64,000 nt of DNA from Acidobacteriota bacterium (GTDB lineage: Bacteria > Acidobacteriota > Polarisedimenticolia > Polarisedimenticolales > DASRJG01), in contig JAQBEH010000022.1 of assembly GCA_032124015.1 (NCBI GenBank), forward strand, positions 10,585 through 74,584, given 5' to 3'. Position numbers and translations under genes: made by a program. Below are positions 23,434 to 34,759 of the stretch, in pieces (position 1 is the stretch's first letter; each line of letters opens with the position of its first letter). Under the pieces are notes generated by a model that was given only the letters and a program-made list of their open reading frames with translations, searched no databases and was not told where the DNA came from.

Positions 23434-25533
23434 ATGCGCCGATGGATACCCGCAATCATGACGCTCGCTGTGCTGGGGATTTCCGTCCTACGGGCGGCCG
23501 ACACCGAAACCCCGGTTGCTCATCCGGACGCCGAAGAGCGCGTCGAGGTCACGGCCACCAAGTTCGAGGACGACCCTGACAAGATCCCGCAGTCGATGAC
23601 CGTCGTTTCGGGCCAGGATCTCAGGGATCGTGGGGCGATGGATTTCCGCTCGGCCCTGGCGCTCGTGGCCGGAGTCGACATCGCCCCGGGCGGAGACGGC
23701 GGGCCGGCCTCGGCGGTCCCCGAAATGTGGGGCTTCAGGGAGCAGGACGCGTACCTGTTGATCGTCGACGGCGTCCCTTGGGGCGGCGTGTTCAACCCGC
23801 AGGTGTCGACCGTGCGCCTGAACGATATCGAGAGGATCGAGATCCTGCGCGGGGCGGCGCCGGTCATGTACGGGACCACCTCGTTCGTCGGAGTGATCCA
23901 GGTGATCCGCTACCGCCCCGGGTCCGGCGCGCCCGGCATCCAGGCGGCCGCGGGCTCGTACGGTAGTGCGGCGCTCGCGTCGTCGTTCGACCTCGGAACG
24001 TGGGCCGGCTTCGGCTCCCGTCTCACGCTCGACGCCGAGCAGCGGGATTACCCCGACCCGCGCACCGACTTCGAGCGCGGGCATGTTCTCTGGCGCAACT
24101 TCCGCCCGCTCGGTGGCGGTGGTGAAGTCTATTTCAACCTCGAAGGCACGTGGCTCAACCAGTCCCCGTCGAGCCCGGTCCCACGCACGGGAACCGTCCT
24201 CGCGCCGAACGTCCCGCAGAACGCCAATTACAACCCCGGCGGTGCCGAAATCGATCCCCGCCGGAACACGGTGAACGGCGGCTTCACCATCCCGAAGTCC
24301 TACGGCATCTGGAGCGGGCTCGTGTCCTACGCGCGTTCGTCCACCGACGCCCTGCGCGGATTCATCACCGATCCGACCGGGCCGGTCTTCCCCGCAATCG
24401 GCGAGCGTTCGACTACAACCCTCGACGAGGTGTAGGCCGACGCCCACATCGAGCTCACGAACGTCGCGAAGACTCAAATTGTGGTCGGTGTGGATTCCCA
24501 GTACGGCAAAGGCGACCTAGACGGTGGCGATTTCGACTACACGATCAACGCCGACGGCTCGGACCCGCCCGACGGCAACTCGATTCCGCTGAACATCGAC
24601 GCGAATATCATCGACACTCGAAATTTCGGAGGGCTGTACGGATTCGTCGCCTGGACGCCCGACTGGAGGTGGCGGCTCGAGGGGGGGCTGCGCCTCAATC
24701 TCACCGACGAGAGCCGCGACACCACGGTCCAGGACTTCGTGCCGGCGACGTTAGACCAGGGAACCGACCACGCCAGCGAGTCGAGGCCGAGCGGAAGCGC
24801 GGGTGTGACGTTCACCGCGTGGCAACGCGGGGCCGACAATGTCCGGATCTTCGCCGACTACCGGAAGACGTACAAGCCCGCCGCCGTGGATTTCGGCCTG
24901 AACGCCGAAGCCAGAATCCTAGACCCCGAGACCTCGGAGAGCATCGAGCTGGGCGTGCGCACGACGCTCCTCGAGCAGAGACTAGAGCTTGAGATGTCGG
25001 TCTTCAACATGGAGCTCCAAAATCTCGTGGTCCCCACGACCGTGAATGGCCTGCCCGCGCTCGAAAACGCCGGCGCCGAGCAGTTCAAGGGGATCGAGCT
25101 CGAAGCGACCGGGCGCCTGCCGCACGACATCGTGGTGCGGGCGGCGGGGAGCTACCACGACGCAACGTTCCTCGATTACGTTCGGGACTTCGACGGCGTG
25201 CCGACCCAGCTCGAAGGGAAACGCCAAGAGATGACCCCGATCTGGCTGGCCGGGGCCGGCATCGTCTACGCGCCTGCCAAGGGGTTCATCGCCCACGCGG
25301 AGGCGTCGTTCACCGGCTCGCGCTATCTCAACAAACGGAACACGGCGCTCGCCGCCCAGTTCACGACGTGGGGGATGGGCGTCGGCTGGCGCGGGGACCG
25401 CTTCACGATCCGGCTCGACGGCACGAATCTCGGCGACGAGCGCCCTCCGGTTTCCGAGAGCGAGCTCGCCGATGCGTCCTACTACCTTCTCGAGGCCCGC
25501 CGGATCTGGCTGTCGTTCGACTGGTTGTTCTGA
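23434..25533 (+). pseudogene. TonB-dependent receptor interrupted by one in-frame TAG (24433..24435)
   Basis: Signal peptide and plug domain (IPQSMTVVSGQDL, IERIEILRGAAPVMYG) are in ORF 23434..24435. The barrel, ending ..SFDWLF, is in ORF 24481..25533. Both ORFs are in the same frame, and the intervening codons are open apart from the TAG. Confidence 0.8.
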
Positions 25534-25562
25534 AAAAGTGGAACTCCCCTACTTCTCTAGAA
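25533..25562. repeat. Degenerate REP-like element between convergent TBDR and OMP genes
   Basis: The sequence is AAAAAGTGGAACTCCCCTACTTCTCTAGAA. Its reverse complement contains GTAGGGGAGTTCC. Confidence 0.4.
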
Positions 25563-27134
25563 CCTGTAAATCACGCCCGCATAGACCTGGTCCTGATTCT
25601 CGAAGGTGCCGGAATCACGTTCCAGTGAGAGCAGGATGGACCAGCGCCGGCCTATCGCGGCATCCATGTCGAGCCCGTACCAACTCAGGTGGCGATCCAG
25701 AGCGGGGTCCACGTTCAGTTCGTCGAGGCGACCCCCGGCAAATTCGAAATGAACGCCGGAGGAGACGTTCACACCAATGGATAGTGCGTAGAGGTCACCA
25801 CTGCTCTCCAGGTTCGAAAAGTGGGTTCCCCGCAAGCGGACTCCGAAGTTTGCGCGGGTGAAGCGCCCAGCGCCGACGGTCAACGAATAGGAGTTCGCTG
25901 GTCCCAGCACGCCGCCGTCGATCTGGCGCCCCTCGATCCCGATGTCCACGTGGCGACCGATGCGGAACGACGCGCCGCCCCAGGCCCCTTGCCGGGTCGA
26001 TCTGTCGAAGATGACGAGCGGATCCACGTAATCCCAGTATTGGTAGACGTTTTCGCGGCTGTCGTATCCAACGTTCAGATCCAGCCATTTCGCGGCGTGG
26101 ACCCTCAACGAGATGAAGGTCCCGGTGAGTTCGATCGGATCAAGGCCGGCGACGTCGACCTTCCAGCCGCTGTTGAAGTCCACCTCTTGGTTCGCATACA
26201 TCGACAGCCACTTCGAGTCGTAGATCGCCTGGAGGAAGAGATACTGTCGGCTGACGACGCTCGTGGCGTACGCGCCGACGAGGCCGGTGGTGAACGCCCA
26301 GCGTGACGTCGCTCCGGGGCGGTTGTGAACGTTGAAGTAACCCGCAAACTCCCTGACGTCCGTCGAGAAGCTCAAATCGTTGAGGTCCGGTTGCAAGCCC
26401 ACTAGGACACCGCCGCCCCAGCGTGGACCGTCGTGGGCGAACAGCACGCCGTCGAAAATCTCGACACCGTCGAGCATGGGGGCATACTGGCGTCCGAACG
26501 TCAGGCGCTCTTCCGGTGTGAAGCGGTACGAGACCGAGGCGCTGTACGTGCGCACCCTCTGCGTCGCTTGGTCTCCCCCCGAGAAAGTCGAATACGACGC
26601 TCGGCGCGCGCGGATATTGACGTCGAGATCCACCGGCGAGCCATTCAGTCCGTAGCCGGCGAGGCGCACGTTTGTCGCGGGTTCGCTGTACCCCCTGTCG
26701 TTTCCGCTGCGATCGATGATGCCGAGGTAACCGAGTCCGACAGTGCCATGGAGGCCGGCTCCCCGGGAGGCCGCCTTGGGAGACCCGGCCAAAGGCGGAG
26801 CGGCCGCAACCGGCGGGGTGCTCGGCGAATAACGCACCGTGTCGCCGACCCTGAGAGTCGTGGTCGACTCGACGATCGCGCAGGATACCCGGTGGCTCGT
26901 GACGTAGGTGACCTTGAGCGTCGCCACGTCGCTACCGTCGCGCACCGCCGTGAGCTCGTCGCCTTCCTGTAGTCCTTCGTCCTGGCCGGCGTCGACGTAG
27001 ACCGAAGTCGCGGCCACGTAGGTGATGTGCGCGATCGCCGGCTCAGGCTGAGCCGGCGGCGGCTCCGCGGCGAAGGCGAGCGCGGCCGAGACCAACGACG
27101 AGACGACGACAAGGCGTCGTGAGACGCGACTCAC
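25557..27134 (-). CDS. Outer-membrane beta-barrel protein with N-terminal soluble domain (porin component candidate)
   Basis: GTG 27134 overlaps the upstream stop (GTGA). Signal peptide RRLVVVSSLVSAALAFAAEP, a long stretch of alternating beta-strand pattern, and the aromatic terminus ..YAGVIYRF are present. Confidence 0.7.
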   Translation of the reverse strand: MSRVSRRLVVVSSLVSAALAFAAEPPPAQPEPAIAHITYVAATSVYVDAGQDEGLQEGDELTAVRDGSDVATLKVTYVTSHRVSCAIVESTTTLRVGDTVRYSPSTPPVAAAPPLAGSPKAASRGAGLHGTVGLGYLGIIDRSGNDRGYSEPATNVRLAGYGLNGSPVDLDVNIRARRASYSTFSGGDQATQRVRTYSASVSYRFTPEERLTFGRQYAPMLDGVEIFDGVLFAHDGPRWGGGVLVGLQPDLNDLSFSTDVREFAGYFNVHNRPGATSRWAFTTGLVGAYATSVVSRQYLFLQAIYDSKWLSMYANQEVDFNSGWKVDVAGLDPIELTGTFISLRVHAAKWLDLNVGYDSRENVYQYWDYVDPLVIFDRSTRQGAWGGASFRIGRHVDIGIEGRQIDGGVLGPANSYSLTVGAGRFTRANFGVRLRGTHFSNLESSGDLYALSIGVNVSSGVHFEFAGGRLDELNVDPALDRHLSWYGLDMDAAIGRRWSILLSLERDSGTFENQDQVYAGVIYRF

Positions 27135-27760
27135 GGCCTTCCCCCATAGAACGACACGGGATAGTGACACTCGACGCAATTCCGCGAGTACCCTCCCGCC
27201 ACGTGATTCGGGTTCCGGGTCGCGTAGTAGTCCTGCAGGTGACATGCGACGCACTCGGTCGGGGTGTTGACGTACCTCCGATTCGTATGCAGCACATGGC
27301 AGGCCTCACAATCGGCCGCGGCGTGCGCACCCACCAGGGGGAAGCGCGTCAACTGGTGGGCTCGGCCCATGTGCGCGCGGTCGATGAAGCTGCGCGGCGT
27401 GTGGCAGCGCGCACAGTCGTCGCCGAGCTCGCCGCGATGGATGTCCTGGTGGCACGACGTACAACTGCTGCCGACTTCTTTGAAGACGAGGTTGAGGTGG
27501 CAGGCGCGGCACGCGGTTTGAACGTGGGCTCCTTCCAGAGGAAACCGAAATCGCCCGTGATCGAACGATCGGGCGATCTTGGCCGGCTTCCAGCCTTCGG
27601 GTCCATGGCAGGTCGCGCACGTGTCCTTGAGAGGCCCATGCGGATTGTCGGCGTTCCCTACGTCGACGGCGACGCCGGCCTCGTCGGCGGCACGAACGAC
27701 GGCGCCCGCCCCAAGAAAAAAGAGGGCCGCCACTGCGAGCGCCTTCGTCATGTTCGTCAT
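27131..27760 (-). CDS. Heptahaem c-type cytochrome, periplasmic
   Basis: Seven CXXCH motifs: CATCH, CRACH, CTSCH, CARCH, CEACH, CVACH, CVECH. A signal peptide (MTKALAVAALFFLGAGAVVRA) is present. The ATG lies 5 nt after the upstream stop. Confidence 0.85.
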   Translation of the reverse strand: MTNMTKALAVAALFFLGAGAVVRAADEAGVAVDVGNADNPHGPLKDTCATCHGPEGWKPAKIARSFDHGRFRFPLEGAHVQTACRACHLNLVFKEVGSSCTSCHQDIHRGELGDDCARCHTPRSFIDRAHMGRAHQLTRFPLVGAHAAADCEACHVLHTNRRYVNTPTECVACHLQDYYATRNPNHVAGGYSRNCVECHYPVSFYGGRP

Positions 27761-27765
27761 GTCCG

Positions 27766-29835
27766 TCAGTCCGAAGATAGGGGCCGCGTGAGCGCGGGTC
27801 CACCGGGGATATGCTTTCCGTGACAGTCCTCGCAAGTGTGAGGCACTGGGCGATAGACGACGATCGCCCGCCCTTCCTTAGGTCGAGGCGCCGCATGGCA
27901 CTTCGCGCAGGGGACCTTCGCATGAGCGCCCTTCAGGGAGAACGTCGCGTCGACGTCGTGATCGAACTTCGACGCCGGTCGGAACGCAACCTCCCCGTGG
28001 CACGAGGCGCACTGACCGGCCTCGCCGCGCCGTGCAAATTGGTCGCCGTGAGGCGTTTCGTGGCACGCTTCGCAGTTCGTGCCTTTGGTCGTGAATACCA
28101 TCGGGGGCGCAGGCCCGTGGGCGAGCACCAGGGACGAGCGAGCCGGCCCAGGCACCTGTTTCGACTCGACGTGACAGGCATCGCACGAAATCGCCCGATG
28201 CGCCCCAACGAGCGCGTAGTTGAAGTAGAGATGCGAGGCCACATCCACGATCACCGGCCGGAAGGCGGCGAAGTTGTGACACGCTTCGCAGTTGTTCTTT
28301 TTGGGGCGCAACCCCGTCGGGCCGAACCGGCCGTCGTGAGCGTCGAAGTGGCACGAGGCGCACTCCGTCTCCCTGACGACGAGCAGGACGCCAGCGCGGC
28401 CGAGTTTATCGACCGGAGGCAGGGGAGGCAGTCCCTTGCGAGCCGGCCCGTGGCACGCGGCGCATTCGATCTTCGCGTGGCGTCCCTCGATCGGGAATTT
28501 CAGCTTCGCGTGCTCGGCCACGCCGAACAGGCTCGGCTTCCAACCGGCGACGTTGTGGCAGGGCTCGCAGGCCGCGCCTCCCGGCCGCGAGGCGAGCTGG
28601 CCGCCATGGTCGTCCCGATGGCAGTCGAGACAGCGCGAATACTTCGGCCGGAGAAGCACCCCCGCCGATCCCAAGGACCCCGCCGCGACGCCAGGAGGAT
28701 TCTTGAGGTGACACTTCTCGCAGGCGACGGCACGGTGACGGCCCTCGAGCGGATACGCCGATTTCTGGTGCTGCTCCACCGTGTACGCGTTGACGCGAAA
28801 GCCCTCGACCCGATGGCAGGCCGCGCAATCGACGACGCGGCCCTCAATCGTCGCCCGTCCGGCGTGGGCATCCTTGTGACACGACCCGCACGATGAGAAG
28901 ACAGGTTTCTTCCCCCACGCCTTGGCCGGATCGTGGCACTGCGCGCACTTGAGCGCGGTGTGTTTTCCGCGCAACGGGTAGCGGGTCTTGTCGTGCTCGA
29001 AGCTCGCCGCCGTCGCCGCCGTCACGGCGAGAAAGGACTCGGTTACGTGGCACTTCGCGCAGCCAGGCCCGAGTCGGCCGGCGTGAGGGTCGACGTGGCA
29101 GGGTGTGCACTCGGCGTGGGGGATCGGCTTGTACAACGGCTTCGGTCGGCCCTCCGCGTCCTTCGGGAGGTCGAGGTTCGCCACCATGTGGCACTTCTCG
29201 CACTTGACCGGAATGTGCTTTCCCGTCAGCGGGTAGCTCGTCTTGCCGTGGTCGAAATTGGAAGGCGGCTTCCACGCTACAACGCTGTGGCATGATTGGC
29301 ATTCTGGCCCGAGCGATCCGCGGTGGATGTCTTCGTGGCACGACTTGCACTCGCGCTCGAGCCCGATCCATCCTTCCGAAGGGTTCTTCCGCTTGGACAG
29401 TTTTGCGGCGGGCGAGACCACGTACTTCGCCGTGTGACAGTCTCGGCACTTGGTCGTCTGGTGCTTGCCCTCGAGCGGCCACCCAGCTGTCTTGTGGTCG
29501 AACTTATCCGCGCTTCCCTCCGGCCAAGCCACCATCTCGAAGTCGCGTCCCGCGTGGTCCGGATGACAGGTCGCGCACTCTTCGCCCTTCTTGGTCGCGT
29601 GCAATCCGCGGTCATGCTGGACCAGCCAACCGATGTCCTTGTGGCATTCGACGCACCGGTCGTCCATGGAGCCTTTCGCCTTGCCGTGGCAGGCGAAACA
29701 CTGAAGGGGCGTGTCGATCTCCTGATGGGGGTGAGCAAGCGGGCCGGGGGACATTTGGGCGTAGGCCGGCCCCGCGAGCGAGCCGACGGCGAGCGCGATG
29801 GCGAAGGCGCTCGATCTGACCGTCAATGGAACCAC
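27766..29835 (-). CDS. Multihaem c-type cytochrome with 23 CXXCH motifs
   Basis: I counted 23 CXXCH motifs in 689 aa, arranged as repeated triads (..PLxGxH-x4-CxxCH .. CxxCHxDxHxG .. CxxCH). GTG 29835 overlaps the upstream gene end. The signal peptide SSAFAIALAVGSLAGPAYA has no lipobox Cys. Confidence 0.88.
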   Translation of the reverse strand: MVPLTVRSSAFAIALAVGSLAGPAYAQMSPGPLAHPHQEIDTPLQCFACHGKAKGSMDDRCVECHKDIGWLVQHDRGLHATKKGEECATCHPDHAGRDFEMVAWPEGSADKFDHKTAGWPLEGKHQTTKCRDCHTAKYVVSPAAKLSKRKNPSEGWIGLERECKSCHEDIHRGSLGPECQSCHSVVAWKPPSNFDHGKTSYPLTGKHIPVKCEKCHMVANLDLPKDAEGRPKPLYKPIPHAECTPCHVDPHAGRLGPGCAKCHVTESFLAVTAATAASFEHDKTRYPLRGKHTALKCAQCHDPAKAWGKKPVFSSCGSCHKDAHAGRATIEGRVVDCAACHRVEGFRVNAYTVEQHQKSAYPLEGRHRAVACEKCHLKNPPGVAAGSLGSAGVLLRPKYSRCLDCHRDDHGGQLASRPGGAACEPCHNVAGWKPSLFGVAEHAKLKFPIEGRHAKIECAACHGPARKGLPPLPPVDKLGRAGVLLVVRETECASCHFDAHDGRFGPTGLRPKKNNCEACHNFAAFRPVIVDVASHLYFNYALVGAHRAISCDACHVESKQVPGPARSSLVLAHGPAPPMVFTTKGTNCEACHETPHGDQFARRGEAGQCASCHGEVAFRPASKFDHDVDATFSLKGAHAKVPCAKCHAAPRPKEGRAIVVYRPVPHTCEDCHGKHIPGGPALTRPLSSD

Positions 29836-30812
29836 GTGACACCGAGAACGATCGCGGTCCCCACGTGAAGCACGACGGCGACGAGCGCAACGATGGCCAT
29901 GGGCTTGTGCGCGACGTGCCAATAGCGGAGGAGTCGGTGCGTAACGTCGAGCATACGAGCTTGCTGCATCAGCGCGATCTCGCTCCGCATGAGACCGTGC
30001 AGTCTGGCGCGCGCCGCGCGATCGACCCGTCGTTCGGCGGTCGAAGCGCCTTTCCAACTCCACTGCAATTGTCGGGAGGTCTTCCACCGCCGCGCGTCGT
30101 CCGCGATCATGACCGCGAAAGCTTTCAGCGCGTTCATGTCGGGTGAGATCGTGGGAGACGCTCCAGAGAGCAGGGCGTGTTCGAGGAGCTCGCCGTCGAT
30201 CCCTGTGGCGTCGACGATTTGTTGAAGCACAGCCCGACGCTGGGTCTCGAGCTGGTCGCGCGTCAGCTCGACACCGTTTCTGCTACGCGGGATGCGCACG
30301 TAGATGTACCGTCCGACGACTCCGCTCAGCCACGCGACCATCATCGCGCCGTAGCCGAGCCCGATGAGGCCGGAGAAGTGCCACGCCGCGTGGAGCGTCG
30401 CGAGAAACGGAACGCAGAGGCCTGCTATCACGTGGACGTCGAGCCAGATCGCACGTGATGCGCCGAACGCAAGCCACCGGAATTTCTTTTGAAGCGGGTA
30501 GATCCACAAGAAGCTGAACAGGGCAAAGGCGGCGATTCCAGCGGCTTGTCCGATGAGGCCTGACGGTCGGAACCACGGATGCAGCGGGCTCCGCAAACGA
30601 TCGACCGCGGGCAACACGAAATACGGCAGGCCAGCAAGATTGGCCGAGACGACCAAGCCCAGGACGACGAGGAGGAAGCCCAGCCCGACGCGCGACCTCC
30701 TGGACGCCGCAATCTCCGCCTTCTGGGGGCGCTTGGCCGGCCTAGGCGCCGGTGCCGGCTCCGGCGCGCGCCGCTTTGCAGCGTGGTTCTCGAGCACGGC
30801 TTGTGAGCTCAT
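29823..30812 (-). CDS. Integral membrane protein with two H-x13-H helices (dihaem b-type cytochrome candidate)
   Basis: 329 aa with about 5 TM helices. One helix reads HVIAGLCVPFLATLH and another HKPMAIVALVAVVLH. A loop of about 110 aa precedes the last helix. Confidence 0.6.
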   Translation of the reverse strand: MSSQAVLENHAAKRRAPEPAPAPRPAKRPQKAEIAASRRSRVGLGFLLVVLGLVVSANLAGLPYFVLPAVDRLRSPLHPWFRPSGLIGQAAGIAAFALFSFLWIYPLQKKFRWLAFGASRAIWLDVHVIAGLCVPFLATLHAAWHFSGLIGLGYGAMMVAWLSGVVGRYIYVRIPRSRNGVELTRDQLETQRRAVLQQIVDATGIDGELLEHALLSGASPTISPDMNALKAFAVMIADDARRWKTSRQLQWSWKGASTAERRVDRAARARLHGLMRSEIALMQQARMLDVTHRLLRYWHVAHKPMAIVALVAVVLHVGTAIVLGVTWFH

Positions 30813-31068: not shown

Positions 31069-32364
31069 ATGCTGACCACCGTACTTTTCCTGACGACGAC
31101 CCTTCTTGTTTGCCTCGTGCACGTGCGCAAGCACGCGAAGCTCGAGCGAAGATCGCTCGAGTTGCGTGAGGAGAATGAAAAGGCCGGGCTCAACGAACCG
31201 TTCTCGCTTCATCCCCTCATCGACGAGAACTTATGTATCGGCTGCGGCTCCTGCGTTACGGCCTGCCCCGAGCAGGCGGTCCTTGGCCTCATCCAGGGGA
31301 AAGCGGTTCTTGTCGAGGCCTCGCAATGCATCGGCCACGGAGCCTGCAAGACCGCGTGCCCCACGAGGGCGATCCAACTCGTGTTCGGTACGGAAGAGCG
31401 TGGCGTCGACATCCCCAACGTCCAGTCGAACTTCGAGACGAACGTCCCGGGCATCTTCATCGCGGGTGAGCTCGGCGGCATGGGGCTGATCGGCAACGCC
31501 GTCGAGCAGGGGCGGCAGGCGATTGAGTCGATTCGCAAGCTGTCCGGGATGGGCCAAGGGAACCGGTTCGACGTCGTCATCGTCGGGGCCGGCCCGAGCG
31601 GATTCTCGGCATCTCTTGCGGCGCTGCACCACAAGCTGCGCGTCTTGACGATCGAGCAGGACACCCTCGGCGGGACCATCGCCCACTTCCCGCGCGGGAA
31701 GATCGTCATGACGCGACCCATGGAACTTCCCATCGTCGGGAAGGTGAGATTCTCCGAGACGACGAAGGAGAAGATCATCGACTTTTGGAAGAAGGTCGAG
31801 CGCGAAACCGGCGTCAAGATCAACTACAACGAGCGCCTGGAGACCATCGCCGTCGACGGGAACGGTTTCACCGTCCGCACTACGCGAGGTGAATACCGTG
31901 CCCGAGCCATACTTCTGGCCATTGGCCGCCGGGGCACCCCCCGCAAGCTCGGCGTCCCCGGCGAGGAACTCGACAAGGTCGTCTACCGGTTGATCGACCC
32001 CGAGCAGTATCGAGGTCAGCATGTGCTTGTCGTGGGCGGCGGCGACAGCGCCCTCGAGGCGGCGGCCGCCATAGCGGCGCAGCCAGGCTCGACCGTCACC
32101 CTCTCCTACCGAGAGAAAGCGTTCGTCCGGGCCAAGGTAACGAACCGCAAAAAGGTCGAGACGGCTCTGTTCGAAAAACGCCTGCGCGTGCTGTACGAGT
32201 CGAAAGTGCAGGTGGTGCACAAGAAATCGGTAGCTGTCGAGCAGAACGGCCAGGTGATCCTCGTCCCGAACGATGCGGTGATCGTCTGCGCGGGCGGCCT
32301 CCTCCCGACTCCGTTCCTCAAGGAAATTGGCATCGAGGTCGAAACGAAGCACGGCACCGCCTAG
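31069..32364 (+). CDS. Membrane-anchored 2x[Fe-S] ferredoxin-domain / FAD-NAD(P) oxidoreductase (thioredoxin-reductase-like)
   Basis: N-terminal TM helix MLTTVLFLTTTLLVCLVHV followed by RKHAK. Cluster motifs CIGCGSCVTACP and CIGHGACKTACP. Dinucleotide folds VVIVGAGPSG and VLVVGGGDSALE. Confidence 0.8.
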   Translation: MLTTVLFLTTTLLVCLVHVRKHAKLERRSLELREENEKAGLNEPFSLHPLIDENLCIGCGSCVTACPEQAVLGLIQGKAVLVEASQCIGHGACKTACPTRAIQLVFGTEERGVDIPNVQSNFETNVPGIFIAGELGGMGLIGNAVEQGRQAIESIRKLSGMGQGNRFDVVIVGAGPSGFSASLAALHHKLRVLTIEQDTLGGTIAHFPRGKIVMTRPMELPIVGKVRFSETTKEKIIDFWKKVERETGVKINYNERLETIAVDGNGFTVRTTRGEYRARAILLAIGRRGTPRKLGVPGEELDKVVYRLIDPEQYRGQHVLVVGGGDSALEAAAAIAAQPGSTVTLSYREKAFVRAKVTNRKKVETALFEKRLRVLYESKVQVVHKKSVAVEQNGQVILVPNDAVIVCAGGLLPTPFLKEIGIEVETKHGTA

Positions 32365-32404: not shown

Positions 32405-34639
32405 TCAGTTCGTTTCCGGTGCTCCGTTGTCGATCCAACTCGTGATGATGGCCGGCTCCCCGGACAGCAGGTACTGTCGCATGGTCCCACCCGTCTGAGT
32501 CGTCGACCGGACCTTCGCACGATTGGCGAAGACCTGTGCGTAGGTCAGCAGGGTTGGGCTCTGGCCCCCGGTGGTGTGGCAGCCGCTCTGCGTGCAGCCG
32601 AGCTTGGTTCCGTTAGGCTGATTCGGCCGCGCGGTGATCATCGCCTTCGTCGTGTTCAGGTAGGTCACACGCGTTGTGACCGTCACCGAATCCTGCGCGC
32701 TCCCCTGGGGGCTGCCGTTGTCGATGACGGTGAGCGTGAAGGTGTAAGTCGCCGTTGCGTTCACCGGCGCTACAAAGCTCGGTGTCGCGGTGTTCGCACC
32801 CGACAGCGTCACCGTCGCTCCGGCGGTCTGGCTCCACTGATACGAGCTGATCGATCCATCGGGATCCGACGAGGCGCCGCCGTTGAGTAGGACCGTGACG
32901 CCCGGGTCGAGGTTGATCTGGTCGGGGCCGGCGTTCGCGAGCGGAGGCTGATTCGTCGCGACACTCACGGTGATGACGACCGTCGATGACCCGGTGGCTC
33001 CATCGTTGTCGGTGACGGTCAGAGCCGCCGTGTAGCTGCCGGCCGATGCATAGGTGTGCGTCGGGTTCTGAACGGTCGACGTGCCCCCGTCACCGAACGC
33101 CCACGCGTACGAGGCGATCGTGCCGTCCGTATCGGTGCCCGTCCCCGTGAACGTCACGAGCAACGGGGCGGTACCGGACGTCGGCGTGGCCGACGCCGAG
33201 GCGCTGGGCGGCAGGTTGCTGACGGCGGAGATGGCGACCGTCGACGAGCCGGTCGTGCCGCCGTTGTCGGTGACCGTCAGGGTGGCCGTGTAGTTGCCCG
33301 GCGACGCGAAGGTGTGCGAGGGGCTCTGCGCGCTCGAGGTCCCGCCGTCGCCGAAGGTCCACGCGTAGGAGGCGATGGTCCCGTCGGAGTCCGTCCCTGA
33401 ACCGGTAAACGCCACGACGAGCGGGGCTTTGCCGGAGGTCGGCGCGGCCGTGGCACTCGCCGTCGGAGGCTGGTTCCCGGCGGAACTCGCGGAAATGGCG
33501 ACCGACGATGAGCCCGTGGCTCCGTTATTGTCGGTGACCGTGAGCGTTGCGTTGTAGTTCCCCGCGGTCACATACGTGTGCGAGGGGCTGGCCACGGTGG
33601 ACGTGCCGCCGTCGCCGAAGGTCCAGGCATAAGACGCGATTGTTCCGTCGGAGTCGGACCCGGAGCCGGTGAAGACCACGGCCAGAGGCGCCAACCCGGA
33701 CGCGGGCGTTGCGGAGGCGCTTGCGATCGGAGGCTGGTTCGCAACGGCCGAGATCTGGACCGTTGCATTTCCCGTCGCGCCGTTGTTGTCGGTGACCGTG
33801 AGCGTCGCGTTGTAGTTGCCGGCCGTCTGATACGTGTGCGAGGGGTTCCTCGTGTTCGATGTGCCGCCGTCGCCGAAGGTCCAGGCGTAGGACGCGATCG
33901 TCCCATCGGAGTCCGTCCCGTTCCCGGTGAACGCCACCACGAGCGGCGCCTTCCCACTGGTGGGTGTGGCCGAAGCGCTCGCGGTCGGGGGCTGATTGGA
34001 CCCGGCCGTGATCGCGACCGTCGTCGAGCCTGTAGCGCCACCGTTATCGGTCACCGTGAGCGTGGCCGTGAAGTTCCCGCTGGTCTGATACGTGTGCGTG
34101 GGGTTCTGTTGCGTCGACGCGCCGCCGTCTCCGAACATCCAGGCGTAAGACGCGATCGTCCCGTTGGAATCGGTCCCGCTTCCCGTGAACGTCACGAGGA
34201 GCGGCGCCAATCCCGAGATCGGAGTCGCCGAAGCTGTCGCGGTCGGGGGCGGGTTTGCCGGAACGCTGACCGCGACCTCCACGGCCGCCTGACTCGTCGC
34301 GCCGGCGTTATCCGTGACTTCGAGCATGGCGATGAAGGTGCCAGCCGTGGCGTACAGGTGGGTCGGGTTGGCCTCCGACGAGGTGGCGCCGTCACCGAAC
34401 GTCCACGCGTAGGCGGCGATCGATCCGTCGGGGTCGGTCGCCGAGCCGGCGAAGGCCACGGTCAGCGGGGCCGGCCCCGAGGTCGGCGTAGCCGTCGCCA
34501 GGGTCACAGGCGCTTGGTTCGCTCTGTCGAGCGTGACGTCCTTACAGGCTAGAAAGGTCGCGAGAGCAAGAATGACGCCTGCGGCGAGCACGCGAGCGAA
34601 CGGCCACCCGTCCGCCCGGGATCCTCTCGTCTCTTTCAT
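32405..34639 (-). CDS. Lipoprotein with six tandem PKD domains, one ANAGPDQ-type PKD-like domain and a C-terminal CX4CH cytochrome-like domain
   Basis: ATG 34639 follows GGAGGA. Lipobox LATFLAC. Repeats of the type APLxVxFTGxGTDxDGTIASYAWTFGDGGTS..TLTVTDNxGATG. The tail contains CTQSGCH and a downstream GGTM. Confidence 0.85.
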   Translation of the reverse strand: MKETRGSRADGWPFARVLAAGVILALATFLACKDVTLDRANQAPVTLATATPTSGPAPLTVAFAGSATDPDGSIAAYAWTFGDGATSSEANPTHLYATAGTFIAMLEVTDNAGATSQAAVEVAVSVPANPPPTATASATPISGLAPLLVTFTGSGTDSNGTIASYAWMFGDGGASTQQNPTHTYQTSGNFTATLTVTDNGGATGSTTVAITAGSNQPPTASASATPTSGKAPLVVAFTGNGTDSDGTIASYAWTFGDGGTSNTRNPSHTYQTAGNYNATLTVTDNNGATGNATVQISAVANQPPIASASATPASGLAPLAVVFTGSGSDSDGTIASYAWTFGDGGTSTVASPSHTYVTAGNYNATLTVTDNNGATGSSSVAISASSAGNQPPTASATAAPTSGKAPLVVAFTGSGTDSDGTIASYAWTFGDGGTSSAQSPSHTFASPGNYTATLTVTDNGGTTGSSTVAISAVSNLPPSASASATPTSGTAPLLVTFTGTGTDTDGTIASYAWAFGDGGTSTVQNPTHTYASAGSYTAALTVTDNDGATGSSTVVITVSVATNQPPLANAGPDQINLDPGVTVLLNGGASSDPDGSISSYQWSQTAGATVTLSGANTATPSFVAPVNATATYTFTLTVIDNGSPQGSAQDSVTVTTRVTYLNTTKAMITARPNQPNGTKLGCTQSGCHTTGGQSPTLLTYAQVFANRAKVRSTTQTGGTMRQYLLSGEPAIITSWIDNGAPETN
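32947..34516 (-). repeat. Tandem coding repeats of about 260 bp (PKD units)
   Basis: Six consecutive units of 86-88 aa share long identical peptide runs (IASYAWTFGDGGTS, ATLTVTDN). Confidence 0.8.
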
Positions 34640-34759
34640 CCGTCCATCCTCCGGCGCCCGTAGCCGACCGTAGGAGAACAGAGCAAGCGCAGTGCCACGA
34701 CGTTGGTCGGACACTTCGAGTCATGCCGTTTTACGATTTCGTGGCGAATTCCGCCTACA

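What the first reader, a model, noticed from the sequence alone, without database searches (positions are those of the whole stretch)
27766..29835. 23-haem cytochrome built from repeated trihaem modules
I counted 23 CXXCH motifs in 689 residues, about one per 30 aa. From the fourth motif onward they fall into about seven repeats. Each repeat has the pattern F(D/E)H..x..(Y/F)PLxGxH-x4-CxxCH, then a gap of about 25 aa, then CxxCHxDxHxG, then about 10 aa, then CxxCH. This recalls the paired-CXXCH/c7-type modules of Geobacter polymeric cytochromes. A haem chain of that length could span the periplasm or more. The neighbouring 7-haem protein uses the same module.
Basis: partly seen in the sequence, partly recalled or inferred. 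Interest (0 to 1): 0.6.

Follow-up and report, generated by a model that had tools for sequence, protein, structure and literature searches.

The report
Periplasm-spanning 23-haem cytochrome wire
This gene encodes a real, widely conserved 23-haem electron-carrying protein. It sits in a five-gene set that looks built to move electrons from inside the cell, across both membranes, to the outside; a four-part version of this set is known only from genome predictions in iron-oxidising bacteria.

Summary
The minus-strand ORF 27766-29835 (689 aa, Sec signal peptide) has exactly 23 CXXCH motifs, which use all 46 cysteines. Composition-preserving shuffles give 0.22 motifs.

Across 81 homologues (47-81% identity), and in a 30%-identical Bacteroidota homologue, all 23 motifs are kept. 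Exactly 23 further histidines are also kept, which points to 23 bis-His haems and no open catalytic site.

The layout is an N-terminal trihaem unit, six c7-like trihaem modules and a terminal dihaem unit. Pfam Cytochrome_C7 matches strongly. The best solved-structure relative is Geobacter GSU1996 (profile E 1.7e-6).

The gene is not an assembly artefact. The same gene trio occurs in at least 8 independent assemblies.

It belongs to a strongly conserved module with four partners:
- a membrane-tethered Fe-S flavoprotein;
- a 5-TM inner-membrane protein with two WX3HX13H motifs and SGXXG;
- a second cytochrome of variable size (7 haems here, 9-58 in relatives);
- a probable outer-membrane barrel.

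This matches the published but untested "PCC3" porin-cytochrome cluster. Here it is extended to Acidobacteriota, Gemmatimonadota and a cultured Emticicia plasmid, with an added NAD(P)H-type flavoprotein.

Verdict: a new variant of a known kind, of moderate interest.

The parts
27766..29835 (-). 23-haem c-type cytochrome, 689 aa; mature form about 72 kDa, about 86 kDa with haems. This is the finding.
   Evidence: 23 CXXCH and 46 Cys. Pfam C7/c3. All motifs plus 23 distal His are invariant in 81 homologues and in Emticicia. Mass.
29758..29835 (-). Sec signal peptide (aa 1-26, ...AGPAYA|QMSPGPL). There is no lipobox.
   Evidence: Read from the sequence. The conserved block Q27-S29-P30-G31-L33-H37 starts right after it.
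29518..29757 (-). N-terminal trihaem unit (aa 27-106; haems 1-3; distal His 37, 79, 94).
   Evidence: Cytochrom_CIII hit at residues 36-96. Invariant residues.
27979..29517 (-). Six tandem c7-like trihaem modules (aa 107-619; haems 4-21), 75-93 aa each. Each has three invariant distal His: xH, GxH and CxxCHxDxH.
   Evidence: Module self-alignment, invariants, C7 hits, register with 3OV0. DNA-level repeats are only 60-80% identical over 20-69 nt.
27769..27978 (-). C-terminal dihaem unit (aa 620-689; haems 22-23; distal His 626, 638), a truncated seventh module.
29823..30812 (-). Inner-membrane protein, 329 aa, 5 TM plus a cytoplasmic helical insert. Motifs: W123xxxH127-x13-H141 (TM3), S163G164xxG167 (TM4), W298xxxH302-x13-H316 (TM5). 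Putative dihaem-b transmembrane electron carrier. It overlaps the cytochrome start by 13 nt.
   Evidence: Invariants in 70 homologues. AF2 model pLDDT 84. Present in 64 of 65 loci. Motif signature as defined for PCC3/PCC4 inner-membrane proteins (PMC5566968).
31069..32364 (+). Divergently transcribed Fe-S flavoprotein, 431 aa, with an N-terminal TM anchor. Motifs: CxGCGxCxxxCPE, CxGHGxCxxxCP, GxGPxG (FAD) and VGGGDSA (NAD(P)H). Putative cytoplasmic electron donor or acceptor of the inner-membrane protein.
   Evidence: Pfam Fer4 plus Pyr_redox_3. Motif conservation of at least 90% in 68 homologues. Present in 61 of 65 loci: 37 divergent, 24 between the inner-membrane-protein gene and the cytochrome gene.
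27131..27760 (-). Second multihaem cytochrome, 209 aa, 7 haems, Sec signal. It is the shortest form of a highly variable partner (9-58 haems in relatives). It lacks the family's conserved C-terminal domain of about 70 aa.
   Evidence: The same 209-aa gene occurs in 8 assemblies.
25557..27134 (-). Probable outer-membrane beta-barrel, 525 aa. It has a signal peptide, an N-terminal soluble domain of about 100 aa, no TM helix, and a C-terminal ...VIYRF beta-signal. It overlaps the 7-haem gene by 4 nt.
   Evidence: Sequence features. C-terminal Phe in 62 of 64 homologues. Present in 53 of 53 loci with enough downstream DNA. No Pfam, NCBIfam or PDB match.

Best explanation
The gene encodes a Sec-exported, soluble periplasmic c-type cytochrome. 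It carries 23 covalently bound, bis-His-ligated haems in one chain: an N-terminal trihaem unit, six c7-like trihaem modules and a terminal dihaem unit. It has no open coordination site, so it is an electron conductor and not an enzyme.

It is the 'periplasmic multihaem cytochrome' of a PCC3-type trans-envelope conduit. The proposed path runs as follows:
1. At the inner membrane, a 5-TM protein with two WX3HX13H motifs (probably two b haems stacked across the bilayer) exchanges electrons with a membrane-tethered NAD(P)H-type Fe-S flavoprotein on the cytoplasmic face.
2. The 23-haem protein bridges the periplasm. It would be about 20 nm long if extended like GSU1996, which measures 12 nm for 12 haems.
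3. A second cytochrome and a barrel of about 525 aa take electrons through the outer membrane.

Shown here:
- haem-motif and ligand conservation;
- the modular anatomy;
- export signals;
- the five-gene synteny;
- the motif signature of the inner-membrane protein;
- presence in many lineages and in a cultured isolate.

Inferred:
- actual haem loading;
- linear geometry and length;
- b-haem binding;
- the barrel fold;
- physical contacts between the parts;
- the direction of flow.

I favour outward flow, from NAD(P)H to an extracellular acceptor.
For: Haem sites:
- 23 CXXCH against 0.22 expected.
- All 23 motifs plus exactly 23 other His are invariant in 81 homologues, and are kept in a 30%-identical Emticicia homologue.
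- 110 of the 120 best hits have 23 motifs; the other 10 have 22.

Family links:
- Pfam C7, c3_2 and CIII all score above their cut-offs.
- The best PDB relative is GSU1996.
- The genome has cytochrome c maturation genes.

Synteny:
- The inner-membrane protein is present in 64 of 65 loci and the flavoprotein in 61 of 65.
- The second cytochrome and the barrel are each present in 53 of 53 loci.
- Gene overlaps of 13 and 4 nt suggest translational coupling.

The inner-membrane protein:
- W123/H127/H141, S163/G164/G167 and W298/H302/H316 are invariant.
- This equals the PCC3/PCC4 inner-membrane-protein signature.

Match to published PCC3:
- The periplasmic cytochromes there have 21, 24 or 27 haems and 22-39 aa per haem. 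Here the values are 23 haems and 30 aa per haem.

Link to NAD(P)H:
- Remote homologues of the inner-membrane protein on proteobacterial plasmids match by hhalign at 95.6%.
- They sit next to an unrelated NAD(P)H flavoprotein (FAD_binding_6 + NAD_binding_1 + Fer2) and a 7-haem cytochrome.
- So the pairing with an NAD(P)H/Fe-S flavoprotein recurs with two different folds.

A cultured carrier:
- The Emticicia oligotrophica plasmid carries ccsA plus the whole five-gene module.
Against: - There is no experimental or expression evidence.
- PCC3 itself is functionally unverified.
- The barrel has no family or structure match, and my strand-periodicity test was only about 1.9 SD above shuffles.
- The inner-membrane protein shows no detectable homology to ferric-reductase-domain or cytochrome b561 proteins.
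- In this genome the second cytochrome has lost the conserved C-terminal domain that nearly all relatives keep. The conduit here may therefore be impaired or work differently.
- The closest named relatives (L003, L006) lack the inner-membrane protein and the flavoprotein upstream.
- The module is patchy among relatives: 11 of the 41 genomes searched have it, that is the window's own genome plus 10 of its 40 relatives.
- The direction of flow is not constrained by sequence.
Confidence: 0.72

Rival explanations
1. Same hardware, opposite polarity. This would be an electron-uptake conduit for Fe(II), Mn(II) or reduced-humic oxidation, as hypothesised for PCC3 in iron oxidisers. The inner-membrane protein would pass electrons to the quinone pool, and the flavoprotein would be accessory or regulatory.
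For: PCC3 was discovered in neutrophilic Fe(II) oxidisers and modelled as donor-to-quinone. A PCC3 inner-membrane-protein gene is up-regulated in iron-oxidising Sideroxydans CL21. In variant locus L003, Ni_hydr_CYTB is the only b-type cytochrome gene seen near the cluster, in a locus that lacks the inner-membrane protein and flavoprotein. Multihaem chains are reversible.
Against: The flavoprotein is conserved in 61 of 65 loci, often sits inside the operon, and is replaced by another NAD(P)H flavoprotein in remote relatives. That argues it is the direct partner. Pushing electrons from Fe(II)-range potentials to NAD(P)+ and into a negative-inside cell is energetically uphill (established bioenergetics; my inference). 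No quinone-site motif was identified.
Confidence: 0.2
2. The protein is mainly a periplasmic electron store (a 'capacitor') that buffers respiration when acceptors are scarce, as proposed for Geobacter GSU1996, and not a fixed bridge.
For: It has the same modular poly-trihaem build as GSU1996. Storage is the function proposed for that protein and mentioned for PCC3. Twenty-three haems can hold 23 electrons.
Against: The haem number is fixed at 23 across phyla, while the partner cytochrome varies from 7 to 58 haems. This suggests a length constraint, as for a spacer of defined span, and not a capacity. Tight operon coupling to membrane components at both ends fits a conduit. The two roles are not mutually exclusive.
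Confidence: 0.06
3. It is a multihaem redox enzyme, for example a reductase of nitrite, sulfite or hydroxylamine type, or a subunit of an Hmc/Tmc-like respiratory complex acting on a soluble periplasmic substrate.
For: There are weak sub-threshold similarities to HmcA (24.6 bits against a cut-off of 400) and to NrfA segments (E 4e-4).
Against: Every haem has a conserved sixth His ligand. There is no CXXCK or lysine- or tyrosine-ligated site and no conserved Met. No catalytic subunit gene lies in the conserved neighbourhood.
Confidence: 0.015
4. It is an artefact: a mis-assembled or collapsed repeat, a chance ORF, or a fusion of neighbouring genes.
For: The protein is modular, and the neighbouring second cytochrome is demonstrably repeat-unstable in other genomes (L001 against L002).
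Against: An identical 689-aa product lies on 21 contigs. The 8 places inspected come from separate samples and MAGs. Modules share only 60-80% identity over short DNA stretches. Full-length homologues with 23 motifs occur in at least four phyla.
Confidence: 0.005

Closest known systems
PCC3 porin-cytochrome gene cluster (He et al. 2017, PMC5566968; Gallionellaceae survey PMC9900912), predicted in Alpha-, Beta- and Gammaproteobacteria and functionally unverified
   Same: The four-part inventory matches:
- a periplasmic cytochrome with 21-27 haems and a very low aa/haem ratio (here 23 haems, 30 aa per haem);
- a second, repeat-rich cytochrome with a widely varying haem number (here 7; 9-58 in relatives);
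- an adjacent outer-membrane barrel;
- an inner-membrane protein of about 300 aa with 5 TM, SGXXG on TM4 and WX3HX13H on TM3 and TM5.

The last feature is reproduced residue for residue. The periplasm-spanning idea has already been proposed for PCC3.
   Different: - The cluster is found here in Acidobacteriota, Gemmatimonadota, Eisenbacteria, Krumholzibacteria and a Bacteroidota plasmid.
- Nearly always it carries an extra membrane-tethered Fer4 + Pyr_redox_3 flavoprotein that is not part of the PCC3 definition.
- The haem count is 23 and not a multiple of 3.
- The barrel is smaller, about 525 aa, against PCC3 porins with up to 42 predicted strands.
- Sequence homology to proteobacterial PCC3 proteins could not be tested here.
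Geobacter sulfurreducens poly-c7 'nanowire' cytochromes GSU1996 / GSU0592 (12 haems) and GSU2210 (27 haems); structure 3OV0
   Same: A single polypeptide built from tandem trihaem c7-type domains. Pfam Cytochrome_C7 matches. 3OV0 is the best solved relative (E 1.7e-6), with the motifs in register. Both are periplasmic.
   Different: GSU1996 has one His-Met haem per domain, whereas here all 23 are predicted bis-His. The third distal His follows the second motif (CxxCHxDxH), where GSU1996 has no His. Modules are longer, at 75-93 aa. This protein sits in a porin/inner-membrane-protein operon, and I know of no such context for GSU1996 (from memory; not checked here).
MtrCAB / MtoAB / PioAB and Geobacter OmaB-OmbB-OmcB porin-cytochrome complexes
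   Same: The logic is the same: a periplasm-facing multihaem cytochrome gene immediately upstream of, and coupled to, an outer-membrane barrel gene, forming a trans-outer-membrane conduit.
   Different: There is no family-level match. DmsE/MtrA-type TIGR03508 gives only 16 bits against a cut-off of 192, and that hit is for the 7-haem neighbour. The barrel matches no NCBIfam model, so none of MtrB/PioB type. Those systems use 8-12-haem proteins and need separate periplasmic shuttles and a quinol dehydrogenase (CymA, ImcH, CbcL).
NADPH oxidase / ferric reductase (NOX/FRE, ferric-reductase domain) and MsrQ
   Same: The proposed working principle is the same: cytoplasmic NAD(P)H to flavin to two b haems held by His pairs on TM3 and TM5, then to an acceptor on the far side. 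Remote homologues of the inner-membrane protein are paired with an FNR-type FAD/NAD domain protein, like the NOX dehydrogenase domain.
   Different: Homology is not demonstrable. Pfam Ferric_reduct gives E 0.09-0.2, and hhalign against E. coli MsrQ gives 0.4% probability. This protein has 5 TM, not 6. It carries a cytoplasmic helical insert of about 110 aa. The flavoprotein is a separate polypeptide with Fe-S clusters.
Hmc / Tmc transmembrane redox complexes of sulfate reducers
   Same: A periplasmic multihaem c3-type cytochrome, a membrane b-type subunit and a cytoplasmic Fe-S protein link periplasmic and cytoplasmic redox pools.
   Different: Only sub-threshold similarity to HmcA (24.6 bits against 400). 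No HmcB-F or TmcB-D homologues are present. An outer-membrane barrel is present here and is not a listed component of Hmc/Tmc.

Membership tests
c-type multihaem cytochrome | CXXCH haem-attachment motifs conserved among homologues | tested here: met
   23 motifs, all invariant in 81 homologues and aligned in Emticicia at 30% identity.
c-type multihaem cytochrome | Export to the periplasm and a cytochrome c maturation system in the genome | tested here: met
   Sec-type signal peptide with an AYA|Q site, read by eye. Four Cytochrom_C_asm genes in the genome.
c-type multihaem cytochrome | Covalently bound haem actually present, 23 per chain | not testable with these tools
   Needs haem staining, mass spectrometry or pyridine haemochrome.
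Poly-c7 cytochromes (GSU1996 type) | Tandem trihaem domains matching the cytochrome c7 model | tested here: met
   Pfam PF14522 at 99.7 bits against a cut-off of 24.8, in 3 stretches. Six trihaem modules by self-alignment.
Poly-c7 cytochromes (GSU1996 type) | Detectable sequence homology to GSU1996 | tested here: met
   Profile against PDB: 3ov0_A at E 1.7e-6, profile positions 127-377 against chain residues 26-274, motifs in register. A single-sequence search found nothing.
Poly-c7 cytochromes (GSU1996 type) | One His-Met coordinated haem per trihaem domain | tested here: not met
   23 invariant non-motif His for 23 haems, and no invariant Met. Only 5 Met in the mature protein. GSU1996 ligation as described in PMC10138318.
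Poly-c7 cytochromes (GSU1996 type) | Extended linear haem chain | not testable with these tools
PCC3 porin-cytochrome cluster | Periplasmic cytochrome with about 21-27 haems and 22-39 aa per haem | tested here: met
   23 haems; 689/23 = 30 aa per haem. Criteria.
PCC3 porin-cytochrome cluster | Inner-membrane protein of about 300 aa with 5 TM, SGXXG on TM4 and WX3HX13H on TM3 and TM5 | tested here: met
   329 aa. The AF2 model shows 5 long TM helices. W123/H127/H141, S163/G164/G167 and W298/H302/H316 are invariant in 70 sequences.
PCC3 porin-cytochrome cluster | Second, repeat-rich cytochrome with a large and variable haem number | tested here: inconclusive
   Relatives have 9-58 haems with near-identical repeats. 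The window's copy has only 7 and lacks the conserved C-terminal domain. An extracellular location is not testable.
PCC3 porin-cytochrome cluster | Adjacent outer-membrane beta-barrel (porin) | tested here: inconclusive
   Signal peptide, no TM helix, and a C-terminal Y-x-F-type beta-signal with Phe in 62 of 64 homologues; always syntenic. No family or structure match and a weak periodicity signal.
PCC3 porin-cytochrome cluster | Sequence homology to reference PCC3 proteins (e.g. Sideroxydans lithotrophicus ES-1) | not testable with these tools
   No reference sequences could be reached. Only a remote alphaproteobacterial relative of the inner-membrane protein, in a context without a porin, was linked (hhalign 95.6%).
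MtrAB/MtoAB/PioAB | Match to decahaem DmsE/MtrA and MtrB/PioB family models | tested here: not met
   NCBIfam TIGR03508 gives 16 bits against a cut-off of 192, for the 7-haem protein only. The barrel has no hit.
Ferric-reductase domain / cytochrome b561 (for the inner-membrane protein) | Profile-level homology to PF01794 or to E. coli MsrQ / YodB | tested here: not met
   PF01794 gives E 0.09-0.21 (12-13 bits against 28). hhalign gives 0.4% against MsrQ and 0.06% against YodB. Foldseek gave no hit.

The most novel reading that the evidence does not exclude
The module is a split, NOX-like, quinone-independent 'electron exhaust'. Cytoplasmic NAD(P)H would be oxidised by the membrane-tethered Fe-S flavoprotein. 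Electrons would cross the inner membrane through two b haems of a new 5-TM protein family, then run along one 23-haem protein across the whole periplasm. They would leave through a cytochrome-barrel complex. If so, abundant soil phyla (Gemmatimonadota, Acidobacteriota) and some Bacteroidota would have a previously unrecognised route for dumping reducing power on minerals or humics without the quinone pool.
Probability: 0.33. Interest if true: 0.8.

Novelty: new variant of a known kind. Interest (0 to 1): 0.52.

Why it matters
Very long single-chain cytochromes are the simplest conceivable way to wire the inner membrane to the outer membrane, yet none has been characterised in that role. PCC3, the nearest described system, is still a prediction confined to Proteobacteria.

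This work adds four things:
- The same design is fixed at 23 haems across at least four more phyla, two of which (Gemmatimonadota, Acidobacteriota) are common in soils.
- Each haem has a conserved pair of ligands, so the protein is a pure conductor.
- The enigmatic inner-membrane protein is almost always partnered with an NAD(P)H-type Fe-S flavoprotein, and with a different one in remote relatives. This gives a concrete, testable alternative to the assumed quinone link.
- A cultured, non-pathogenic isolate (Emticicia oligotrophica DSM 17448) carries the complete module with its own ccsA on a 100-kb plasmid. The question therefore becomes experimentally tractable.

Tried and rejected
- A single-sequence PDB search found nothing. 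Only the profile search did.
- Profile searches of the inner-membrane protein and the barrel against PDB were empty.
- The idea that the inner-membrane protein belongs to the ferric-reductase-domain or cytochrome b561 families was rejected on Pfam and hhalign results.
- Promoter and terminator scans found no more than chance.
- My beta-strand periodicity test on the barrel alignment was weak: 29 segments against 20.6 +/- 4.4 in shuffles.
- Proteobacterial PCC3 genomes could not be reached through the genome search.
- Literature searches for this cluster in Gemmatimonadota or Acidobacteriota found only generic FeGenie hits (PMC11316326) and different 8-13-haem clusters in peat Acidobacteriota (10.64898/2026.05.27.727921). 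The '23 heme' search was noise.
- Misassembly was considered and rejected. A catalytic role was considered and rejected.
- Rampant inter-phylum transfer was considered. The tree is largely phylum-coherent, although presence is patchy.
Full report
**The observation**

The longest ORF over the flagged coordinates runs on the minus strand from 30087 to 27766. Independent gene callers chose the same start in eight other assemblies.

A recount finds 23 CXXCH motifs. All 46 cysteines lie in those motifs, and the protein has 52 histidines. In 20,000 shuffles that preserve composition, the mean is 0.22 motifs and the maximum 3. The other five frames of the same DNA have none. Of the 32 CXXCH in all six frames of the 64-kb window, 30 lie in this gene and its neighbour.

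**Anatomy**

- Residues 1-26 form a Sec-type signal peptide (AYA|Q) with no lipobox cysteine.
- Residues 27-106 carry haems 1-3.
- Six modules of 75-93 aa follow: 107-188, 189-273, 274-348, 349-434, 435-527 and 528-619. Each has three motifs.
- A truncated seventh module, 620-689, has two motifs.

At the DNA level the modules share only 60-80% identity over 20-69 nt. This is an old duplication, not a repeat that an assembler would collapse.

**Are the motifs real haem sites?**

The protein search returned more than 4,599 relatives. The best 120 are full-length, 614-823 aa (most 650-730), at 49-81% identity, and are named 'cytochrome c3 family protein' where a name exists. Of these, 110 have exactly 23 motifs and the other 10 have 22.

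In an alignment of 81 homologues with a mean column identity of 51%, all 23 CXXCH are invariant. Exactly 23 further histidines are also invariant: 37, 79, 94, 114, 125, 171, 196, 207, 251, 281, 292, 324, 356, 367, 410, 442, 453, 500, 535, 546, 596, 626 and 638. That is three per trihaem unit and two in the dihaem unit. No methionine is conserved, and the mature protein has only five.

A homologue on a plasmid of Emticicia oligotrophica (Bacteroidota) is only 30% identical. It still aligns all 23 motifs and all 23 extra histidines.

The simplest reading is 23 low-spin bis-His haems with no open coordination site. That makes the protein an electron conductor or store, not an enzyme. The genome carries four cytochrome c assembly genes.

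**Family placement**

- Pfam gives Cytochrome_C7 (8e-29, three stretches), Cytochrom_c3_2 (2e-22) and Cytochrom_CIII (4.5e-8).
- NCBIfam gives only far-sub-threshold hits, such as HmcA at 24.6 bits against a cut-off of 400.
- A profile of the 81 sequences finds Geobacter GSU1996 (3OV0) as its best solved relative, at E 1.7e-6 with the motifs in register over about 250 residues.

GSU1996 is the dodecahaem protein made of four c7-type domains. It is extended, with a crescent-shaped linear haem array. The title of its structure paper gives 12 nm for 12 haems, as cited in PMC10138318. GSU1996 has one His-Met haem per domain. In this protein the ligand after the second motif is CxxCHxDxH, where GSU1996 has no histidine. 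The protein is therefore related in build to GSU1996 but does not meet that defining feature.

**Not an artefact**

The identical 689-aa product lies on 21 contigs. The eight places inspected come from different runs and two NCBI MAGs. All show the same order: 431-aa flavoprotein, 329-aa membrane protein, 689-aa cytochrome, 209-aa cytochrome and 525-aa protein.

**The neighbourhood**

I fetched 80 loci from species-representative genomes and located the window's five proteins in them.

| Loci considered | Component | Present |
|---|---|---|
| 65 with at least 3.5 kb upstream | 329-aa membrane protein | 64 |
| 65 with at least 3.5 kb upstream | Fe-S flavoprotein | 61 (37 divergent as here; 24 between the membrane-protein gene and the cytochrome gene) |
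| 53 with at least 7 kb downstream | second cytochrome | 53 |
| 53 with at least 7 kb downstream | 525-aa protein | 53 |

In the window the genes overlap by 13 nt (membrane protein and cytochrome) and 4 nt (7-haem gene and barrel gene).

- **Membrane protein.** It has no Pfam domain, and its more than 1,000 relatives are all named 'hypothetical' where a name is given. The AF2 model (pLDDT 84) shows five transmembrane helices and a cytoplasmic helical insert. W123, H127 and H141 on TM3, S163, G164 and G167 on TM4, and W298, H302 and H316 on TM5 are all invariant.
- **Flavoprotein.** It has an N-terminal anchor, one canonical ferredoxin motif and one His-substituted motif (CxGHGxCxxxCP, conserved in at least 90% of 68 homologues). 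It also has FAD and NAD(P)H fingerprints.
- **525-aa protein.** It has a signal peptide, no hydrophobic helix, a Gly/Ser/Tyr-rich composition and a C-terminal ...YRF. Phe is terminal in 62 of 64 homologues. That is the classic outer-membrane beta-signal. It has no family or structure match, so the barrel fold remains inferred.

**Comparison with the literature**

This inventory is what He et al. (2017) defined as 'PCC3'. That cluster comprises:
- a porin;
- an 'extracellular' cytochrome that is repeat-rich, with a median of 34 haems and a maximum of 85;
- a 'periplasmic' cytochrome with a median of 21 haems and 22-39 aa per haem;
- an inner-membrane protein of about 300 aa with five helices, SGXXG on helix 4 and WX3HX13H on helices 3 and 5.

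The window's membrane protein reproduces that signature exactly.

[quoted passage not shown] PCC3 is still 'functionally unverified'. It has been reported only from Proteobacteria. I found no paper in the held library that links it to Gemmatimonadota or Acidobacteriota.

I could not obtain reference PCC3 sequences. Membership rests on architecture and motifs, not on demonstrated homology.

**What is new relative to PCC3**

1. *Taxonomy.* By RpoB the window's genome is an Acidobacteriota MAG: 91% to a 'Terriglobia' MAG against 62-64% to Gemmatimonadales. Relatives fall into two groups. One is a Gemmatimonadota clade of 65 of the 80 sequences. The other combines Acidobacteriota, Krumholzibacteria and Eisenbacteria (15 sequences, support 99) and holds the window. 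Presence is patchy: 11 of the 41 genomes searched have the gene (the window's own plus 10 of 40 relatives), and only 1 of 9 other genomes in the same genus.
2. *The flavoprotein.* It is not part of the PCC3 definition, yet it is nearly universal here.
3. *Remote relatives.* A tblastn search of plasmids found remote relatives of the membrane protein in Qipengyuania and Methylophaga; hhalign against the Qipengyuania copy gives 95.6% probability, E 1.3e-8. Each sits between a 7-haem cytochrome and an unrelated NAD(P)H flavoprotein, FAD_binding_6 + NAD_binding_1 + Fer2. Two different NAD(P)H/Fe-S flavoproteins recurring beside the same membrane-protein family argues that the protein takes electrons from pyridine nucleotides. 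PCC3 models have assumed the quinone pool instead. This is an inference. The membrane protein shows no detectable homology to ferric-reductase-domain or cytochrome b561 proteins.
4. *A cultured carrier.* Emticicia oligotrophica DSM 17448 plasmid pEMTOL02 encodes, in order: ccsA; the membrane protein (hhalign 99.9%); the flavoprotein; a 23-haem cytochrome; a 40-haem cytochrome; and a 538-aa homologue of the window's candidate barrel (hypothetical, no Pfam; synteny-matched).

**A peculiarity of this genome**

The second cytochrome varies from 9 to 58 haems in relatives. It nearly always ends in a conserved tri-haem domain (FDHD..FFPIYSGKH..C..CH...CY.CHPRG), recognisable in most of the 64 homologues inspected (strict motif in 42 of 64).

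The window's copy has 7 haems and stops just before that domain. A remnant, 'SHDAL', follows the stop in frame, and the domain occurs nowhere else in the genome. The truncation is present in all eight assemblies. It is therefore a fixed deletion in this species. It may weaken or alter the outer-membrane end of the conduit.

By contrast, the 23-haem count never varies. This is easier to explain by a length constraint than by storage capacity.

**Mechanism and odds**

- I put about 0.72 on the core reading: a 23-haem periplasmic conductor within a PCC3-type trans-envelope conduit.
- Within that reading I favour outward flow from NAD(P)H, at roughly one in three overall for the full NOX-like, quinone-independent model.
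- The iron-oxidiser-style uptake polarity is about 0.2.
- A mainly capacitor role is about 0.06.
- Enzyme and artefact readings are negligible.

**Limits**

There are no coordinates, no haem-aware model, no structure for the barrel and no direct comparison with reference PCC3 proteins.

Noticed in passing
window 27131-27760 (and 27100-27134): The 7-haem cytochrome is a fixed C-terminal truncation of a family that normally ends in a conserved tri-haem domain (FFPIYSGKH...CY.CHPRG). The remnant 'SHDAL' follows the stop codon in frame. The deletion is shared by all 8 assemblies of this species.
   Followed up: yes
L001 10010-15365 against L002 10007-15811 (two near-identical long-contig MAGs): The second-cytochrome region differs between two assemblies that share an identical 23-haem protein. 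One has 31+7+11-haem ORFs, the other 51+14-haem ORFs. It is built from near-identical repeats (VYQGLGTECATCHQ.DYDGTT...). This is either repeat expansion and contraction or assembly error in a hypervariable extracellular cytochrome. Across 70 loci the haem count ranges from 9 to 58.
   Followed up: partly
window 23434-25533 (+), stop at 24433-24435: A TonB-dependent receptor is split into a Plug part (333 aa) and a barrel part (350 aa) by one in-frame stop. The same split (325 + 350 aa genes) is called in 7 of the 8 independent assemblies (the eighth contig ends inside it), so it is real in the population and not a sequencing error.
   Followed up: partly
window 32405-34714 (-): A PKD-repeat protein (7 PKD_4 stretches) has an 88-aa tail containing CTQSGCH (CX4CH) and no Pfam cytochrome hit. 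The tail is syntenic with the cytochrome cluster only in the closest relatives, L003 and L006 (63-65% identity). It is absent from the Gemmatimonadota loci.
   Followed up: partly
window 31069-32364 (+), residues 87-98: The second ferredoxin motif of the flavoprotein reads CIGHGACKTACP, with His in place of the second Cys. This is conserved in at least 90% of 68 homologues and in Emticicia (CVGHGACFHACP). It suggests a His-ligated or 3Fe cluster.
   Followed up: partly
L097 6938-10782 (Qipengyuania citrea plasmid) and L098 5088-8865 (Methylophaga pinxianii plasmid): A conserved four-gene set lies among heavy-metal-resistance genes (P-type ATPase, DUF411, a MerR-type regulator). It comprises an FNR-like FAD/NAD/2Fe-2S protein, a relative of the inner-membrane protein, a cytochrome c gene (7 CXXCH counted in Qipengyuania; the Methylophaga copy was not counted) and DUF1622. 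It may be a periplasmic metal-reducing electron export unit.
   Followed up: partly
L003 12561-16903 (variant locus, 61% identical cytochrome): This close relative lacks the inner-membrane protein and the flavoprotein upstream. Instead it has a 424-aa Ni_hydr_CYTB (cytochrome b561-type) gene and the PKD protein downstream on the other strand. This may be an alternative inner-membrane entry point.
   Followed up: no
genome contig C154 12066-15378 (outside the window): A second large cytochrome pair (26-haem and 16-haem ORFs) lies in the same genome, about 11 kb from a Cytochrom_C_asm gene (C154 26443-27033). It is only 23% identical to the 23-haem protein. The genome has 21 ORFs with at least 3 CXXCH.
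   Followed up: no
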